64,000 nt of DNA from an uncultured Actinomycetota bacterium. GTDB taxonomy: Bacteria > Actinomycetota > Actinomycetes > JAHEKZ01. Shown here in pieces: positions 2,190 to 5,569 of this stretch (positions within the stretch are counted from its first letter, which is position 1; the number at the start of each line of letters is the position of its first letter). The notes under the pieces were generated by a model, which saw only the letters and a list, made by a program, of their open reading frames with translations, did not search any database and was not told the origin of the DNA. The translations under genes were made by a program, and so were the position numbers. The stretch spans positions 64,001 through 128,000 of the forward strand of contig CAWHIJ010000003.1 of assembly GCA_963829525.1 (NCBI GenBank), read 5' to 3'.

Positions 2190-2302
2190 GGGACCATCCT
2201 ACGGGGCGCAGCGGCGAGTCGGCTCGACCAGGACGGCCAAAGTGGGGCAGGACGAGAACGGTGACGGCCCGACCAGGACAGCCAGGACGGAGCAGTGACG
2301 CG

Positions 2303-2977
2303 GTGAGCGAGCAGTTCGATCACGAGACCGAACAGATCCTCGGTGTCGACAGCCGGAGCGCGGGCATCGATGACAGCTCCGATGACAGCCGCAACGCGAG
2401 CTCCGGCGTCGGCTCAGGTGACACCTCCAGCGTCGGCTCAGGTGACACCTCCAGCGTCGGCTCAGGTGACACCTCCGGCGTCGACCACGCAGCCCTGCGC
2501 GAGGCCGAGCACCAAGCCCACAAAGTCGCCGGCGCCATATACGGCACGATCCTGGCAACCACCGTGGTGGCCGCTATCGGGCCAGGGCCAGAAGAGCTGA
2601 GCCGATCACTCGCTGTCGTCCTCGTCACCTCTGCGGTCTTCTATGCGGCGCACGTCTACTCAGTAGCGGTCGGCGCGCGCATGGTGGCGCGACGTCATCT
2701 CACCGGCTCCGAGGTAGCCGGCATCGCTGCTGCTGAGTGGCCCATGCTGCAGTCGTCATGGCCCGTGGCGGTGCCGCTGCTCCTTGGCAAGCTTGGCTGG
2801 ATCCCTGCAGAAGCGGCCACCGACGTCGCCATGGTGGTCGGGATCGGTGCGCTCTTCGTCTATGGAGTACTGCTGGGTGTCCGCGAAGGACGCGGCTGGC
2901 TGAGCGTCGTCGTCAACGCGCTCGTCGTCGGCTCGTTTGGCGTCCTGATCCTGCTGCTGAAGATCGTTGTCCACTGA
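2303..2977 (+). CDS. hypothetical integral membrane protein
   Basis: GAIYGTILATTVVAA plus about 5 hydrophobic segments; acidic/Ser repeat N-terminus; start codon uncertain. Confidence 0.7.
   Translation: MSEQFDHETEQILGVDSRSAGIDDSSDDSRNASSGVGSGDTSSVGSGDTSSVGSGDTSGVDHAALREAEHQAHKVAGAIYGTILATTVVAAIGPGPEELSRSLAVVLVTSAVFYAAHVYSVAVGARMVARRHLTGSEVAGIAAAEWPMLQSSWPVAVPLLLGKLGWIPAEAATDVAMVVGIGALFVYGVLLGVREGRGWLSVVVNALVVGSFGVLILLLKIVVH
2401..2482 (+). repeat. 24-bp in-frame tandem repeat (about 3.4 copies)
   Basis: CTCC(G/A)GCGTCGGCTCAGGTGACAC repeated; encodes S(S/G)VGSGDT. Confidence 0.9.
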
Positions 2978-3060: not shown

Positions 3061-3819
3061 CTACCTGCGTCGAAGCTCGGCGTGCCGCACCAAGACGTCG
3101 GCGACCTGACTTCGGTACTCCGGTGTGGTCGACGGCGGCAGCTCGACGGTGACTGCGGTCTGCTTGGGAAACTCCCGATTGAACCAGGACGTCATGGTTC
3201 CGCCGCCGGTCACCTGGATGTTCGAAACCGGCAAGTCAAGGTTGCGCGCGAGCCACCGTGTCACCTCCACGTCCCCTCCAGAGGTGTCGACGGAGGAGAG
3301 CGGCTGGTGGATCGAGATGACCGTCTGAGGCCTGACCCGGCTGAAGAACCGCACCATCGCGCGCGTCTCGGGCTCACTGGCTGGTCTTGGTCCCGAGTAG
3401 TAACGCGTCCCCTCACCGTGGCGTACCCACGTGCGGCTGGGAAAGTTGCGGTTGAGGTCGACCGATCTCGCGTTCACGCGCGTTCGACGAATGCGGCCGT
3501 CTGGGTTCATCGTTGGTACGAGCCACAACGCGACATCAGGAATCGGATCGGTCGTGAGCAACCGGTTCAGCACCACCAGCGGGCCAGCAGGCTCGTCGCC
3601 GTGCATCTGACCCATGACGACATAGCGGTTACGCGCCTGCCTGTCGCCGATCAAGAACGCCCGGATCGGACGTCCCGCCGTCGAGTGACCGACGACCTTC
3701 TTGATGGGTCCGTCGACTGCGCTGGCTGTCCCGGGGAGCAGCAGCCCACCTAACGCTCCCGCGGACGCGACGGCAGCACCGGCTACGCCTGCGCGCGCGA
3801 GAAAGGTGCGCCGGTCCAT
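3061..3819 (-). CDS. Tat-exported M14 zinc carboxypeptidase (MpaA-like murein peptide amidase)
   Basis: Twin-Arg signal MDRRTFL; HGDE, NPDG, DLNRNF, SIHQ and VELP motifs. Confidence 0.85.
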   Translation of the reverse strand: MDRRTFLARAGVAGAAVASAGALGGLLLPGTASAVDGPIKKVVGHSTAGRPIRAFLIGDRQARNRYVVMGQMHGDEPAGPLVVLNRLLTTDPIPDVALWLVPTMNPDGRIRRTRVNARSVDLNRNFPSRTWVRHGEGTRYYSGPRPASEPETRAMVRFFSRVRPQTVISIHQPLSSVDTSGGDVEVTRWLARNLDLPVSNIQVTGGGTMTSWFNREFPKQTAVTVELPPSTTPEYRSQVADVLVRHAELRRR

Positions 3820-3984
3820 GGGTTCCATGGGTTGCAGTATCGGCACGAACCGTCGTGGACTGTCGAACCGGCGTAGCGATGGTTTCGTGGCCTCCACTGC
3901 CGTCGCCGCTGCCGTCGTCTACCAGCGCCATGGTGCTCGGTCGCTCGGGACGGGCCATGTGGCGGATTCCCTGCGGTGGCAGGT

Positions 3985-4093
3985 AGCAGCGTCCGACCCC
4001 GGGCGGAGTAGCGTCCGACCCCGGGCGGAGCAGCGTCCGACCCCGGGCGGAGCAGCGTCCGACCCCGGGCGGAGCAGCGTCCGACCCCGGGCG
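3985..4093 (+). repeat. 22-bp tandem repeat, about 5 copies, no spacers
   Basis: AG(C/T)AGCGTCCGACCCCGGGCGG starting at 3985, 4007, 4029, 4051 and 4073. Confidence 0.95.
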
Positions 4094-4271
4094 CGTGGAT
4101 GCCGCACGTCGAGGACGCCGTTCCACCACTTGCGCGCTGACCGTCCAGAACCGCTGGGATTCGGCCCCCACCCACAGACCCGCCCGCGAAGACCGGCGGG
4201 AATCCTCCACTGGCGGATTTCCTGCGTTCCAGAGCCGGGCAGAGGCCGAAAACCGCAGGGAACCCGCCACT

Positions 4272-4317
4272 CGAGAATTGTCCACAGCATCGGCCGAGAA
4301 TTGTTCACAGCATCGGC
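4272..4317 (+). promoter_or_regulatory. 23-bp direct repeat, each unit carrying a DnaA box
   Basis: CGAGAATTGT(C/T)CACAGCATCGGC x2; TTGTCCACA at 4278-4286 is the actinobacterial DnaA consensus and TTGTTCACA at 4301-4309 has one mismatch. Confidence 0.6.
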
Positions 4318-4385
4318 GGACGCAGGGAGTCCCCAGATCGGTTGCCGCGTGCCCGCACCCTGCCGGACGCCGCGACCCTTCGTTC

Positions 4386-5492
4386 ATGCCCCGTCCGCTC
4401 CCCGCCCCAGTGCTCGCCGCCATCGCGGCACGACACGGAGTGATCACGCGCCAACACCTGCTGAGCCTCGGAGCCAGCGAGAGGAACATCGGCACCTGGG
4501 TGCGACGCGGCCAACTGCGACGACTGTCCGTCGGATGCTTCGTGGAGTCCGCCCAGTGGGAACGCGCGGCACCCACCTTGCGGCACACCATGCACGTCTA
4601 CGGAATCCAACTGAACTGTCCCGACGTCGTGGCCCGATGTGCGACGTCAGCCGTTACCTGGCGGTTGCCGGTCCGCAGCATCCCCGACCGGCCACAGGTG
4701 GTCCGCGCCCCGAACCGTGCACACCTGACCAGCGCGTCCGTGCAACGGCGGCACCTAGATCCCGGCCACGCCGTCACCCGACGTGGGCTCACGACGTTGA
4801 CACTGGCGCACACCGTGGTCGACGTCGCCGCTGTCGCCTCCCTTCCTGATGCGCTGATCACCGTGGACGCGGCACTCCGTGGTGGCCTCCGGCTCACCGA
4901 CCTCGACGCTGCGCTCCGCTCGCGAGGCACCTTCACCGGCTGCAGCAACGCCGCAGCCGCCATCGATGCCGGCGATCCGGCGTCGGAGTCCCCTCTCGAG
5001 TCGCTCTCCCGAGGACGCGTCATCGAGCGCCGGCTTCCACTTCCCTTGTGCAACATCGTGATCAAGCACCAGGGGAGGGAAGCGCGCGTCGACAAGCTGT
5101 GGGCCGAGGACGGTGTCGTCGGCGAGGCCGACGGCAAGTCCAAGTACTCCGAGGACGACGCCCCCACGGTGATCTGGAAAGAGAAGCGCCGACACGAGTG
5201 GCTGGAAGAGTTGGGTTTCGCTGTCCCCCGCTGGGGAATGCCCGAGGTCGGCGACGACGGCGCTGCCCTCGAGCGCCGCTACCGGAAGGCGGCGGCTACG
5301 CAGCGGGCGGTGGGATTCCGGTGGCCCGATGCGGTGACCATGGAGGTGCCACGGCTACCTGGCGTCGAGCTGCCAGCCCGCGTGCTGGCTGAGGTGAAGC
5401 GCCTGGCGGCGTCCGGCTACCCGATCGGCATCGTGGACGCGCGCCGGCGTCCTGGCGGATTTCCTGCGCTTTGGACGCCGGTGAGCGCCTGA
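4386..5492 (+). CDS. AbiEi-type wHTH protein fused to a DUF559/Vsr-like PD-(D/E)xK nuclease domain
   Basis: N-terminal HGVITRQHLLSLG...VRRGQLRRL (AbiEi wHTH); middle HTVVDVA...VDAALR; C-terminal SESPLESLSR...RVDKLW...VVGEADGKSKY...EKRRHEWLEELGF. Confidence 0.85.
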   Translation: MPRPLPAPVLAAIAARHGVITRQHLLSLGASERNIGTWVRRGQLRRLSVGCFVESAQWERAAPTLRHTMHVYGIQLNCPDVVARCATSAVTWRLPVRSIPDRPQVVRAPNRAHLTSASVQRRHLDPGHAVTRRGLTTLTLAHTVVDVAAVASLPDALITVDAALRGGLRLTDLDAALRSRGTFTGCSNAAAAIDAGDPASESPLESLSRGRVIERRLPLPLCNIVIKHQGREARVDKLWAEDGVVGEADGKSKYSEDDAPTVIWKEKRRHEWLEELGFAVPRWGMPEVGDDGAALERRYRKAAATQRAVGFRWPDAVTMEVPRLPGVELPARVLAEVKRLAASGYPIGIVDARRRPGGFPALWTPVSA

Positions 5493-5529
5493 AACCGCAA
5501 GGAATCCCCCACTGGCGGATTCCTTGCGG
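5453..5529. repeat. right cluster of the same 17-bp REP-like repeats
   Basis: Copies at 5453-5468(+), 5495-5511(-), 5513-5529(+); the last two form a hairpin with a perfect 13-bp stem CCGCAAGGAATCC/GGATTCCTTGCGG. Confidence 0.85.
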
Positions 5530-5569
5530 CCAGACCCAATGGACCACGACCGATGGCCGCCCGTGTGCG

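What the first reader, a model, noticed from the sequence alone, without database searches (positions are those of the whole stretch)
3960..5529. Lone AbiEi-wHTH/DUF559 nuclease gene bracketed by a fixed-geometry REP-like repeat family: candidate RAYT/REP-analogous system
Seen: a 17-bp motif (TGGCGGATTYCYTGCGG) occurs 8-9 times, and I saw it only around this gene: 3960(+), 4151(-, degenerate), 4193(-), 4211(+), 4253(-), 4321(-, degenerate) on the left, and 5453(+), 5495(-), 5513(+) on the right. Geometry is the same on both sides: (-)/(+) pairs are separated by a single C (4210, 5512), and (+)/(-) pairs by exactly 26 nt of differing sequence (4227-4252 and 5469-5494). One copy lies inside the last codons of the ORF. 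No AbiEii toxin is adjacent, and the unit sits between two conserved actinobacterial blocks. Established: REP/BIME/REPIN arrays flank the HUH transposase RAYT in Proteobacteria; this protein is not HUH but wHTH plus a Vsr-like PD-(D/E)xK fold. Inference: the protein may bind or cut its own flanking palindromes and maintain or spread them, forming a non-RAYT repeat-associated nuclease system normally annotated as an orphan antitoxin.
Basis: partly seen in the sequence, partly recalled or inferred. Interest (0 to 1): 0.82.

Follow-up and report, generated by a model that had tools for sequence, protein, structure and literature searches.

The report
Nuclease gene framed by own palindromes
A gene for a DNA-binding nuclease in an uncultured actinobacterium sits between copies of a 63-letter palindrome that is also scattered, and still spreading, through the genome, an arrangement described so far only for an unrelated enzyme class (RAYT transposases with their REP repeats).

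Summary
The 17-mer is the arm of a ~63-nt hairpin-forming palindrome. One full copy plus extra arms lies on each side of a 368-aa gene (window 4386-5492). The AlphaFold model of its product is an AbiEi-like winged-helix module fused to a Vsr/DUF559-like nuclease fold. The repeat is not exclusive to the gene: this genome has at least 6 further solo copies. No RAYT (Y1 transposase) or AbiEii toxin gene was found.

- 43 of 49 homologous loci from Actinomycetes carry a strict hairpin beside the gene, and 18 of 40 carry one on both sides.
- In 15 of 17 two-sided loci the 5' hairpin's best match is its own 3' partner.
- At least four protein clades in this genus each have their own arm sequence.
- One distant genome holds two paralogues, each with a separate dispersed family (27 and 19 places).
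- Two hairpin inserts in a sister species are missing at the same site in all 13 other genomes of the genus. One has a roughly 10-18-nt target duplication.

Best reading: a REP/RAYT-like partnership built on a non-HUH nuclease. Binding, cutting and mobilisation are inferred. Earlier unchecked notes of this scan describe the same arrangement on other genomes. I found no paper on it.

The parts
3960..3976 (+). Orphan left-type arm of the repeat (exact match to the 17-mer)
   Evidence: In a contig of run X7 an R-type arm stands directly in front of it (loose end at 3959).
3985..4093 (.). Tandem array, 22 nt x 5.0 (AGCAGCGTCCGACCCCGGGCGG), between the orphan arm and the hairpin cluster
   Evidence: Its link to the system is uncertain. 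Short GGACGC-containing tandem arrays also lie upstream of clade-B genes (L010 2825-2900).
4193..4209 (-). Extra right-type arm (R'), joined by a single C (4210) to the full hairpin
   Evidence: 3 mismatches. The same R'-C-hairpin layout is seen at the solo copies C3:1246015 and C1:74.
4208..4272 (+). 5' full hairpin unit: arm 4211-4227, 25-nt loop, arm 4253-4269; 114 nt upstream of the start codon
   Evidence: nhmmer 49.0 bits on + against 33.9 on -. R1 covariance model 68.6 bits. DNA fold -15.6 kcal/mol, z -2.37.
4272..4317 (+). 23 nt x 2 direct repeat (CGAGAATTGTCCACAGCATCGGC); candidate promoter or operator element holding a GTCCACAG motif
   Evidence: One copy only in a contig of run X5 (23 nt left out at 4283). 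By eye, a GTCCACA(G) motif also lies upstream of clade B and D genes and in L009 and L011.
4386..5492 (+). Gene, 368 aa: AbiEi-like module (wHTH plus AbiEi C-domain, residues ~1-197), Vsr/DUF559-like PD-(D/E)xK fold (~198-308) and a C-terminal beta-alpha-beta extension. The last ~13 codons are encoded by the 3' hairpin.
   Evidence: Pfam AbiEi_4 in 14 of 14 clade members, best E 6.2e-10. AF2 pLDDT 89.8. 6y8q Z 9.5, 3hrl Z 8.6, 3r3p Z 8.4, 1cw0 Z 7.6. R234, D236, E247, D249, G250 and K253 are invariant in 14 of 14.
5450..5514 (+). 3' full hairpin unit: arm 5453-5469, 25-nt loop, arm 5495-5511; overlaps the stop codon (5490-5492)
   Evidence: nhmmer 53.1 bits on + against 35.8 on -. R1 73.1 bits. 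DNA fold z -3.17. 45 of 65 columns identical to the 5' unit.
5513..5529 (+). Extra left-type arm (L') after a single C (5512). With arm 5495-5511 it forms an alternative tight hairpin.
   Evidence: exact. The fold of 5450-5532 prefers the R:L' pairing, -24 kcal/mol, z -4.47. In a contig of run X6, 38 nt behind 5519 are replaced by 3 nt.

Best explanation
This is a repeat-plus-cognate-enzyme partnership, organised like REPIN/RAYT systems but built on a different enzyme.

- The gene is single-copy and sits at the same locus in the species of the genus where the locus could be read. It encodes an AbiEi-type winged-helix DNA-binding module fused to a Vsr/DUF559-like PD-(D/E)xK nuclease.
- It is bracketed by its own ~63-nt palindromic repeat.
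- The same repeat occurs as gene-less copies, mostly just behind the 3' ends of other genes, and new copies are still being inserted in related species.

Proposed mechanism (inferred):
- The wHTH module recognises the clade-specific arm sequence of the palindrome, as duplex, cruciform or extruded hairpin.
- Binding at the 5' copy autoregulates the gene, as AbiEi proteins do at inverted repeats.
- The nuclease domain nicks at or next to the palindrome.
- Repair or replication of such nicks copies palindromes to new sites, with a short and variable target duplication. It also keeps the copies of one family alike, and it produces the extra half-arms next to full units.

Shown: the association, the structure conservation, the clade-specific co-variation, the dispersal, the recent insertions and the fold of the protein. 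Inferred: binding, cleavage, and that this protein rather than a host function drives spread.
For: 1. Enrichment at the locus. 7 of 8 window matches lie at 3960-5529 against 0.66 expected. 2 of 8 full units in the genome flank the gene.
2. The palindrome is kept through compensatory change. 92.5% of cells are paired against 32-45% when the partner is slid. 5 of 14 pairs change on both sides. 0 of 500 shuffles reach the covariation score.
3. Generality. In 49 homologous loci from Actinomycetes, a strict hairpin lies in the 5' zone in 30 of 43 loci, in the 3' zone in 30 of 46, in both in 18 of 40 and in either in 43 of 49. Background is 0.455 per kb in the rest of the loci and 0.284 per kb in this genome.
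4. Specificity. In 15 of 17 two-sided loci the 5' hairpin's best match among all 17 3' hairpins is its own partner. Within-locus median score is 0.55 against 0.15 between loci.
5. Clade-specific arms in this genus: A TGGCGGATT..., B GTGAAGAGTTA..., C GGCTCTGAACTG..., D GAGACTTGCATGAG.
6. This genome has only a clade-A gene and only A-type arms: 9 hits at 2 mismatches or fewer, against 0 for B, C and D.
7. Among the rows listed (53 matches, which may lie in any genome, were not listed), exact C-type 12-mers occur only in G012 (8), G006 (3), G002 (3) and G008 (2). Three of these four hold a clade-C gene and the fourth is 76% complete.
8. Genome G041 holds two paralogues. Each is flanked by its own hairpin type and each has a separate dispersed family, 27 and 19 places. 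The only shared place is one gene flank.
9. Recent insertion. 7 of 15 solo sites of G008 are empty in this genome. For the two sites tested across the genus, 13 of 13 other genomes match both flanks and none has the hairpin there. One insert is flanked by a repeated CTAGAGCGA(G/A) that is single in this genome.
10. Protein: AbiEi fold Z 9.5 and Vsr-like fold Z 7.6-8.6. Acidic and basic core residues are invariant in 14 of 14.
11. No Y1 transposase and no AbiEii were found in the genome.
12. The gene sits between the M14 peptidase and DUF1416 genes in the 11 related loci that show at least one flank, like the vertically inherited single-copy RAYTs described in the abstracts listed.
Against: - No biochemical or genetic evidence links the protein to the repeat. 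Linkage and co-variation alone are also expected for a cis-regulatory site that evolves with its binder.
- The census of A-type hairpins across the genus is confounded by phylogeny and by a model built from clade-A genomes. Kin are not independent.
- A few A-like hairpins occur in genomes without a clade-A gene: G003 6, G010 7, G004 4, G002 4 and G005 2 both-strand matches. One B-type solo each occurs in G007 and G008, where no clade-B gene was found.
- The two distant paralogues in this genome have no flanking hairpins.
- 6 of 49 loci show none under the strict criteria.
- One genome (G042) has only the two flanking copies and no solo.
- Families are small (8-27 places), far below classical REP numbers.
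- The inserts in G008 are 124-339 nt, longer than the hairpin, and their non-hairpin parts share no obvious sequence. The mobile unit and its ends are therefore not defined.
- The target duplication is clear at one site only (L075). At others it is variable (62 nt at L079) or not visible.
Confidence: 0.55

Rival explanations
1. Self-contained mobile cassette. The unit hairpin-gene-hairpin moves as a whole, by homing or transposition catalysed by its own nuclease. The gene-less hairpins are then what is left after recombination between the two direct copies, like solo LTRs, or they are MITE-like derivatives.
For: - Both flanking hairpins are in the same orientation, so recombination between them would leave one solo copy.
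- The clade-C cassette has different conserved flanks in G008 and L037 (about C3:442.8 kb of this genome) than in G012 (about C3:705.8 kb).
- At the M14-DUF1416 locus, clade-B genes lie inverted relative to clade-A genes.
- G006 holds a clade-A gene next to a relic of a second, clade-B-like C-terminus with a B-type hairpin. This suggests repeated occupation of one site.
- Earlier unchecked notes of this scan report a clean absence of such a cassette in sister species.
Against: - Each type is single-copy in every genome examined.
- The A/B locus is syntenic across the genus.
- The recent inserts in G008 contain a hairpin and no trace of the gene, and they are G008-specific. Under this model each would need a full insertion followed by a precise loss of the gene.
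- No empty gene site could be examined here.
Confidence: 0.2
2. Purely cis-regulatory sites. The protein is an autoregulator of the AbiEi type. The 5' palindrome is its operator and the 3' palindrome is a terminator or mRNA-stabilising hairpin, or a second operator for looping. Solo copies are further binding sites or neutral by-products spread by host processes.
For: - AbiEi antitoxins repress their own promoter by binding inverted repeats (abstract of PMC7319586, as listed).
- The N-terminal 197 residues match AbiEi.
- The 5' unit lies 114 nt upstream of the start, and the 3' unit abuts or overlaps the stop codon in clades A, B, C and D.
- Operator and binder are expected to co-vary.
Against: - It does not explain the conserved nuclease core.
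- It does not explain why the 3' copy keeps the same clade-specific arms as the 5' copy.
- By reading the flanking frames, 5 of the 6 solos in this genome lie about 20-100 nt behind the 3' end of an unrelated gene. This is a poor place for an operator.
- It does not explain species-specific insertions with target duplication, or the 17-24 solos per family in G041.
- No run of T follows the hairpins.
Confidence: 0.15
3. Coincidence of place. An unrelated small palindromic element (REP- or MITE-like), mobilised by some other enzyme, tends to accumulate in this variable intergenic region, and the gene merely lies there.
For: The locus is variable: tandem arrays, extra arms and strain differences. 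Solo copies elsewhere show that the repeat can exist away from the gene.
Against: - Bracketing recurs in 43 of 49 homologous loci with many unrelated hairpin sequences, at different genomic sites and in different orders of Actinomycetes.
- The own partner is the best match in 15 of 17 loci.
- Two families keep to their own paralogue within one genome.
- No Y1 transposase was found.
Confidence: 0.03

Closest known systems
REPIN/REP repeats with their RAYT (REP-associated tyrosine transposase) genes
   Same: - A single-copy gene that stays at one locus within the genus, flanked by its own palindromic repeat.
- The same repeat dispersed as gene-less extragenic copies, mostly behind genes.
- Several gene/repeat pairs can coexist in one genome, each with its own repeat type.
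- The hairpin-forming doublet is the unit.
The RAYT features are taken from the abstracts listed and from the abstract and passages of PMC3733652.
   Different: - The enzyme is not an HUH/Y1 transposase. No PF01797 was found in the genome, and the fold is AbiEi plus Vsr-like.
- The arms carry no GTAG or CGTC tag; the units start (A)GTGG or CTGG.
- Families are small (8-27 places).
- At least one insertion shows a target duplication. From my own knowledge, IS200/IS605-type chemistry does not make one.
- The host phylum is Actinomycetota. PMC3733652 does not mention Actinobacteria (0 occurrences).
AbiE type IV toxin-antitoxin systems (AbiEi antitoxin with AbiEii toxin)
   Same: The N-terminal wHTH plus AbiEi C-domain: Pfam AbiEi_4 in 14 of 14 members, and 6y8q and 1zel are the top structural matches. 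There is a palindrome upstream of the gene, as at AbiEi operators (abstract of PMC7319586, listed).
   Different: - No AbiEii/DUF1814 partner lies next to the gene or anywhere in the genome.
- A nuclease domain is fused.
- The palindrome is also present at the 3' end and dispersed in the genome.
Vsr endonuclease, DUF559 proteins (for example NGO0050, PDB 3hrl) and the Vsr-like homing endonuclease I-Bth0305I (3r3p)
   Same: The fold of residues 198-308: Z 8.6 (rmsd 2.6, 92 residues aligned), Z 8.4 (2.6, 97) and Z 7.6 (2.7, 104). The acidic core is conserved. PMC3424549 (passages) places VSR, DUF559 and DUF2726 in one PD-(D/E)xK clade, with a group I intron homing endonuclease among its members.
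   Different: - Pfam DUF559 is reached by only 1 of 14 members, at E 0.0042.
- The gene lies in no intron or intein, and it is not inserted within a split target site.
- No cytosine methyltransferase partner was looked for.
CGTC-tagged REPs and other palindromic repeat families without a known mobilising enzyme
   Same: A dispersed extragenic palindrome with no transposase of a classical type in sight. [quoted passage not shown]
   Different: Here a candidate dedicated enzyme is physically bracketed by the repeat.
MITEs (miniature inverted-repeat transposable elements)
   Same: A small non-coding palindromic insert, present or absent between species, with a target duplication at one site.
   Different: No cognate DDE transposase element with the same ends was seen. 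The duplication length is not fixed (about 10-18 nt at L075, 62 nt at L079). The whole unit is one long hairpin, not terminal repeats around a core.

Membership tests
REP/REPIN-RAYT system | The associated gene encodes an HUH Y1 (IS200/IS605-like) tyrosine transposase | tested here: not met
   PF01797 gave 0 matches in the genome, while the control search found it in 6 of 14 control genomes. The protein folds as AbiEi plus a Vsr-like nuclease.
REP/REPIN-RAYT system | The gene is flanked by its cognate palindromic repeats | tested here: met
   Full units at 4208-4272 and 5450-5514. 18 of 40 homologous loci have both sides and 43 of 49 have at least one. The own partner is the best match in 15 of 17.
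REP/REPIN-RAYT system | The same repeats are dispersed as extragenic copies in the same genome, type-specific where several systems coexist | tested here: met
   6 solo units in this genome. Two separate families of 27 and 19 places in G041, each tied to its own paralogue. One genome (G042) has no solos.
REP/REPIN-RAYT system | Conserved GTAG (or CGTC) tag at one end of the REP | tested here: not met
   The alignment of 19 units starts (A)GTGG or CTGG and ends CCAC(T). No GTAG or CGTC tag is present.
REP/REPIN-RAYT system | Single-copy gene, inherited vertically at a fixed locus | tested here: met
   One clade-A copy in the genome. The gene lies between the M14 peptidase and DUF1416/rhodanese genes in the 11 related loci that show at least one flank. 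No species tree was built, so 'vertical' rests on synteny.
AbiE type IV toxin-antitoxin | AbiEi wHTH antitoxin domain | tested here: met
   PF13338 in 14 of 14 clade members, best E 6.2e-10. The window's own protein scores 23.9 bits, just under the 25-bit cut-off. 6y8q Z 9.5 over residues 4-197.
AbiE type IV toxin-antitoxin | Adjacent AbiEii (DUF1814 nucleotidyltransferase) toxin gene in one operon | tested here: not met
   The neighbours are M14 peptidase and DUF1416 genes. PF08843 gave 0 matches in the whole genome, while the control found it in 3 of 14 genomes.
Vsr/DUF559 PD-(D/E)xK nucleases | Vsr-like restriction-endonuclease fold with a conserved acidic core | tested here: met
   3hrl Z 8.6, 3r3p Z 8.4 and 1cw0 Z 7.6 over residues ~198-308. 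Foldseek 3r3p probability 0.98, TM 0.71 on the target. D236, E247, D249 and K253 invariant in 14 of 14.
Vsr/DUF559 PD-(D/E)xK nucleases | Match to the Pfam DUF559 (PF04480) profile above its threshold | tested here: inconclusive
   1 of 14 members at E 0.0042. MTES_1575 matched 2 of 14 at 0.073. None for the window's own protein.
Homing endonuclease gene | The gene sits inside an intron or intein, or splits its own recognition site, and the empty allele carries the intact site | tested here: not met
   The gene is free-standing between two complete palindromes, not between two halves of one. An empty allele of the gene site could not be examined.
Nuclease activity and specific binding to the palindrome (either family) | Biochemical activity on the repeat | not testable with these tools
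   No tool here models protein-DNA recognition or cleavage.

The most novel reading that the evidence does not exclude
Vsr-like (DUF559) PD-(D/E)xK nucleases, here fused to an AbiEi winged-helix module, may be the dedicated partner enzymes of a second, HUH-independent class of persistent palindromic repeats in bacterial genomes. On this reading each nuclease lineage recognises, nicks, copies and homogenises its own hairpin family. That would give 'orphan' REP-like repeats in Actinomycetes a mobilising enzyme, and thousands of 'DUF559' or 'orphan AbiEi antitoxin' genes a function. If the earlier unchecked notes of this scan hold, the same would apply in other phyla, including E. coli.
Probability: 0.35. 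Interest if true: 0.92.

Novelty: new variant of a known kind. Interest (0 to 1): 0.82.

Why it matters
REP/REPIN-RAYT systems are the only described case of a non-autonomous repeat family that persists with a dedicated single-copy enzyme in bacterial chromosomes. Several repeat families have no known enzyme.

If this pairing is functional, three things follow:
- The same genetic arrangement has arisen with a completely different catalytic chemistry, a restriction-endonuclease fold instead of HUH.
- A very common family of unknown function (DUF559, or orphan AbiEi antitoxin) gets a testable role.
- Each clade provides a sequence-specific binder and nickase with its ~63-nt target already known from the genome.

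The pairing also explains assembly breaks and local rearrangements at these loci in actinobacterial MAGs.

Tried and rejected
- **Rfam**: only a sub-threshold microRNA match (25.7 bits against a gathering score of 85). No known RNA family.
- **NCBIfam** and a sequence search of the PDB: nothing meaningful.
- **RNA evidence**: no RNA holder listed among 20 runs. Only metagenome contigs could be laid, so nothing can be said about transcription.
- **Empty gene site**: I looked for the M14-DUF1416 locus in genus members without a clade A or B gene. In G002 and G011 the DUF1416 match lies 19 and 113 nt from a contig end. It was not found with this query in G007. No empty gene site could therefore be read.
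- **Clade-D locus**: in this genome it holds a different, unrelated ORF of similar length, so there is no clean empty site.
- **Pattern searches with 1 mismatch**: close to the reversed-pattern control in most genomes. Only exact matches and (+)/(-) pairs about 50 nt apart were used. 44 and 53 matches were not listed, so the counts for G000, G001 and G010 in those calls are incomplete.
- **My GC3-based ORF picker**: unreliable, since it missed the gene itself. The contexts of solo copies rest on reading the flanking frames.
- **The nhmmer profile** missed a diverged copy at about C3:2379460-2379520 (seen by eye), so copy numbers are lower bounds.
- **The search of earlier findings** by place and by sequence gave nothing.
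- **Not attempted**: correlating wHTH recognition-helix residues with the variable box in the arms.
- **The E. coli ycjD/BoxC lead** from earlier notes was not tested. A search for 'ycjD' listed 15 of 21 papers, none on repeats by title.
Full report
**1. The observation**

The window is G000:C3:64001-128000 of a 2.96-Mb, 65% G+C assembly in 3 contigs.

The 17-mer TGGCGGATTYCYTGCGG, with up to 3 mismatches, matches 8 times in the window. Shuffles give 0.66 on average, and 0 of 100 shuffles reach 8.

The one at 4320-4336 has 4 mismatches and the one at 4151-4170 needs an indel (read).

A single C joins each (-)/(+) pair. The (+)/(-) pairs are 25 nt apart. Copy 5453-5469 lies within the last codons of the ORF 4386-5492.

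**2. What the motif is**

Each (+)/(-) pair with its 25-nt spacer is one ~63-nt palindromic unit.

A profile of whole units finds 8 full units in the genome. Two flank the gene (C3:68211 and C3:69453). Six lie elsewhere (C3:325915, 865423, 1064077, 1246033, 1312035 and C1:91). All score better on one strand, so the unit has a direction, and both gene-flanking units point the same way.

Extra single arms abut some units. The layout R'-C-unit occurs at the 5' side of the gene, at C3:1246015 and on C1. The layout unit-C/G-L' occurs at the 3' side of the gene and at C3:325973. With such an extra arm a second, tighter hairpin can form (-24 kcal/mol, z -4.47).

In an alignment of 19 units from six genomes, 92.5% of cells pair, against 32-45% when the partner is slid. 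Five of 14 pairs change on both sides, and 0 of 500 shuffles reach the covariation score. G-U and C-A cells are equally frequent (10 each, my count). The data therefore do not say which strand, or whether duplex symmetry, is under selection.

Rfam has no such family.

By reading the flanking frames, 5 of the 6 solo units lie about 20-100 nt behind the 3' end of a gene. The sixth lies upstream of a purD-like gene at the start of contig C1. C1 is a strain variant of C3:134-140 kb.

**3. The gene**

The 368-aa product reaches Pfam AbiEi_4 just below threshold (23.9 bits against 25). All 14 aligned clade members match it, with a best E of 6.2e-10. DUF559 is reached by 1 of 14 (E 0.0042).

The AlphaFold model from the 14-sequence alignment is confident (pLDDT 89.8, pTM 0.88).

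- Residues 4-197 align with the AbiEi antitoxin 6y8q (Z 9.5) and with Rv2827c (1zel).
- Residues about 198-308 align with the DUF559 protein NGO0050 (3hrl, Z 8.6), the Vsr-like homing endonuclease I-Bth0305I (3r3p, Z 8.4) and Vsr (1cw0, Z 7.6).
- The ES.LES helix, R234, D236, E247, D249, G250 and K253 are invariant in 14 of 14.

The neighbours are an M14 peptidase gene and DUF1416 plus rhodanese genes. No AbiEii gene and no Y1 transposase gene were found in the genome. The protein is therefore neither a canonical antitoxin nor a RAYT.

**4. The same locus in the genus**

The protein has relatives in 13 of 13 other genomes of the genus. In the 11 related loci that show at least one flank, the gene lies between the M14 peptidase and DUF1416/rhodanese genes.

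Relatives at 92-51% identity (G008, G013, G006, G001, G009) keep A-type hairpins on both sides.

Relatives at 46-49% identity (G003, G005, G010) lie in the opposite orientation at the same locus. They are bracketed on both sides by hairpins of the same size and layout but with different arms (GTGAAGAGTTA...).

G006 holds, beside its clade-A gene, a relic of a second C-terminus followed by a B-type hairpin. The simplest history is therefore an old head-to-head pair of paralogues A and B, one of which was lost in each lineage.

Two further clades at other loci have their own hairpins on both sides:
- C: G008:C170 and G012:C298, arms GGCTCTGAACTG.
- D: G007:C27 and G013:C301, arms GAGACTTGCATGAG or GCGACTTGCATGAG.

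In clades A, B, C and D the 3' hairpin overlaps or abuts the stop codon.

**5. Type-specific co-occurrence**

This genome has only a clade-A gene and only A-type arms: 9 hits at 2 mismatches or fewer, against 0 for types B, C and D.

The covariance model of the A-type unit gives these both-strand matches: G008 40, G001 22, G006 20, G009 19, G000 15 and G013 4 (73% complete). All of these carry a clade-A gene. The other genomes give 0-7. This contrast is confounded by relatedness and by the origin of the model.

Among the listed rows, exact C-type 12-mers occur only in G012 (8), G006 (3), G002 (3) and G008 (2). Three of these hold a clade-C gene, and G002 is 76% complete.

Against a strict rule, a few A-like units occur in genomes without a clade-A gene. 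Single B-type solos occur in G007 and G008.

**6. Generality outside the genus**

A scan of one genome per species returned 49 loci with relatives of the protein. They come from MAGs labelled Actinomycetes or Nanopelagicales, and from Jiangella, Nesterenkonia, Microbacterium and Pseudonocardiales.

I used a strict definition of a hairpin: 16-nt arms with 3 mismatches or fewer, and a loop of 12-40 nt. The counts are:
- 5' zone: 30 of 43 loci.
- 3' zone: 30 of 46 loci.
- Both zones: 18 of 40 loci.
- Either zone: 43 of 49 loci.

Background is 0.455 per kb in the rest of these loci and 0.284 per kb in this genome. That corresponds to about 0.1-0.15 expected per zone. The loci are not independent, since about a quarter come from this genus.

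For 17 two-sided loci (I dropped L052, a duplicate of L051), the 5' hairpin's best match among all 17 3' hairpins is its own partner in 15. In the other two it ranks second behind a close relative. The median score is 0.55 within loci and 0.15 between loci.

**7. Two systems in one genome**

Genome G041 (4.1 Mb) holds four relatives of the gene. For two of them (L061, L069) I searched the genome with the flanking hairpin.

- The L061 type has 47 both-strand matches at 27 places. Two flank its gene.
- The L069 type has 37 matches at 19 places. Two flank its gene.
- The only shared place is one flank of the L069 gene, which the other query matches weakly.

This is a within-genome control that species-level drift of one repeat family cannot explain.

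By contrast, the small genome G042 has only the two flanking copies.

**8. Mobility**

The 17 A-type matches of G008 outside the gene locus make 15 sites.
- At 5 sites the hairpin is also present at the orthologous place in this genome.
- At 2 sites this genome has a decayed or diverged copy.
- One site is rearranged.
- At 7 sites this genome has the two flanks next to each other without the hairpin. The inserts are 124-339 nt.

For the two sites tested across the genus (L075, L078), all 13 other genomes match both flanks and none has a hairpin match there. In 8 (L075) and 1 (L078) of them the flank matches overlap. In the rest they are 11-254 nt apart in diverged spacer. These are therefore insertions in the G008 lineage.

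The L075 insert has the R'-C-unit layout of the solo at C3:1246015. It is flanked by CTAGAGCGA(G/A), which occurs once in this genome. Another insert (L079) is flanked by a 62-nt duplication of a gene's 3' end. A DUF1416 3' fragment likewise lies between two hairpins in G005 and G010.

The non-hairpin parts of the inserts share no obvious sequence, so the mobile unit is not yet defined.

Metagenome contigs of related strains show small differences exactly at the repeats:
- one instead of two 23-nt repeats at 4283;
- 38 nt replaced by 3 nt behind the extra arm at 5519;
- an opposite-strand joint between 3920 and 4018 in contigs of three runs.

**9. Interpretation**

The arrangement matches what defines REPIN/RAYT systems at the level of genome organisation:
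- a single-copy gene at a fixed locus;
- its own palindromes on both sides;
- type-specific dispersed copies;
- several systems per genome.

These RAYT features are taken from the abstracts listed and from PMC3733652 (abstract and passages).

It fails the molecular definition. There is no HUH enzyme and no GTAG or CGTC tag, and at least one insertion has a target duplication.

I therefore file it as something that works like REP/RAYT without being a member. The AbiEi-like module is the likely reader of the clade-specific arms, and the Vsr-like domain is the likely nickase.

The rivals are:
- the whole cassette is the mobile unit;
- the palindromes are only operator and terminator;
- the association is a coincidence of place.

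**10. Novelty**

- 'DUF559': 25 papers, 22 listed by title and abstract start, none on repeats.
- 'AbiEi' with 'DUF559': 0 papers.
- 'repetitive extragenic palindromic' with 'Actinobacteria' and 'RAYT': 0 papers.
- 'AbiEi', 'Vsr', 'endonuclease', 'inverted repeats': 39 papers held at least 3 of the 4 terms; none of the 15 listed is relevant by title.
- 'ycjD': 21 papers, 15 listed, none on repeats by title.

The library lacks most subscription journals, so absence from print is not proven.

Earlier notes of this scan (AI notes, unchecked) describe the same gene-plus-palindrome arrangement on eight other genomes. Three are actinobacterial AbiEi/DUF559 cases and five are small DUF559 genes of other phyla. 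They agree with this reading and were seen only after it had been formed. I did not test the E. coli lead they give.

Noticed in passing
window 3985-4093: A 22-nt unit repeated 5.0 times (AGCAGCGTCCGACCCCGGGCGG) between the M14 peptidase gene start and the hairpin cluster. Short tandem arrays and single copies with a GGACGC core recur near homologous genes and inside some hairpin loops (for example L010 2825-2900, L025 2667-2722, L058 1604-1648).
   Followed up: partly
window 4272-4317: A 23-nt direct repeat x2 with a GTCCACAG core, 69 nt upstream of the start codon. A contig of run X5 has only one copy. A GTCCACA(G) motif also lies upstream of the clade B and D genes and of the L009 and L011 genes.
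   Followed up: partly
window 3815-3833: A 9-nt tandem (TCCATGGGT x2.1) at the start of the M14 peptidase gene. A contig of run X5 carries one more copy (put in behind 3823).
   Followed up: no
window 3914-4018: Contigs of three metagenome runs (X5, X6, X7) join about 3920 to about 4018 on opposite strands. This is a possible inversion or a different arrangement of the region with the orphan arm and the tandem array in related strains.
   Followed up: no
window 2261-2977: An ORF with a threefold GSGDTSSV peptide repeat near its N-terminus and no Pfam match. It is conserved next to the M14 peptidase gene in G001 and G010.
   Followed up: no
G000 contigs C1 and C2 against C3:133.5-143.2 kb: C1 (98% identical) and C2 (80-92% identical) are strain variants of one C3 region. 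C1 starts with a hairpin unit next to a purD-like gene. C3 and C2 carry about 3 kb at that place with ORFs that look like a two-component system. The hairpin and the 3-kb segment therefore alternate at one site.
   Followed up: partly
G000 C3:325765-325910: An array of imperfect repeats (GACCGCACTTCC...ATGCCA) directly upstream of the solo hairpin at C3:325915.
   Followed up: no
G000 C3:856960-858311: At the site where G007 and G013 carry the clade-D cassette, this genome has an unrelated 466-codon open frame on the minus strand with an apparent signal peptide. The site is a replacement hot spot.
   Followed up: partly
G000 C3:60003-60833 and C3:1395569-1396510: Two distant paralogues of the gene (29% and 35% identity) without flanking hairpins. 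The first lies only 7.5 kb upstream of the gene studied, just outside the window.
   Followed up: partly
G000 C3:2379460-2379520: A diverged member of the hairpin family (arms TGGCGGATTCTGCACCG and CGGTGCGAAATCCTCCA) that the nhmmer profile missed. It lies at the site where G008 has a regular A-type unit.
   Followed up: no
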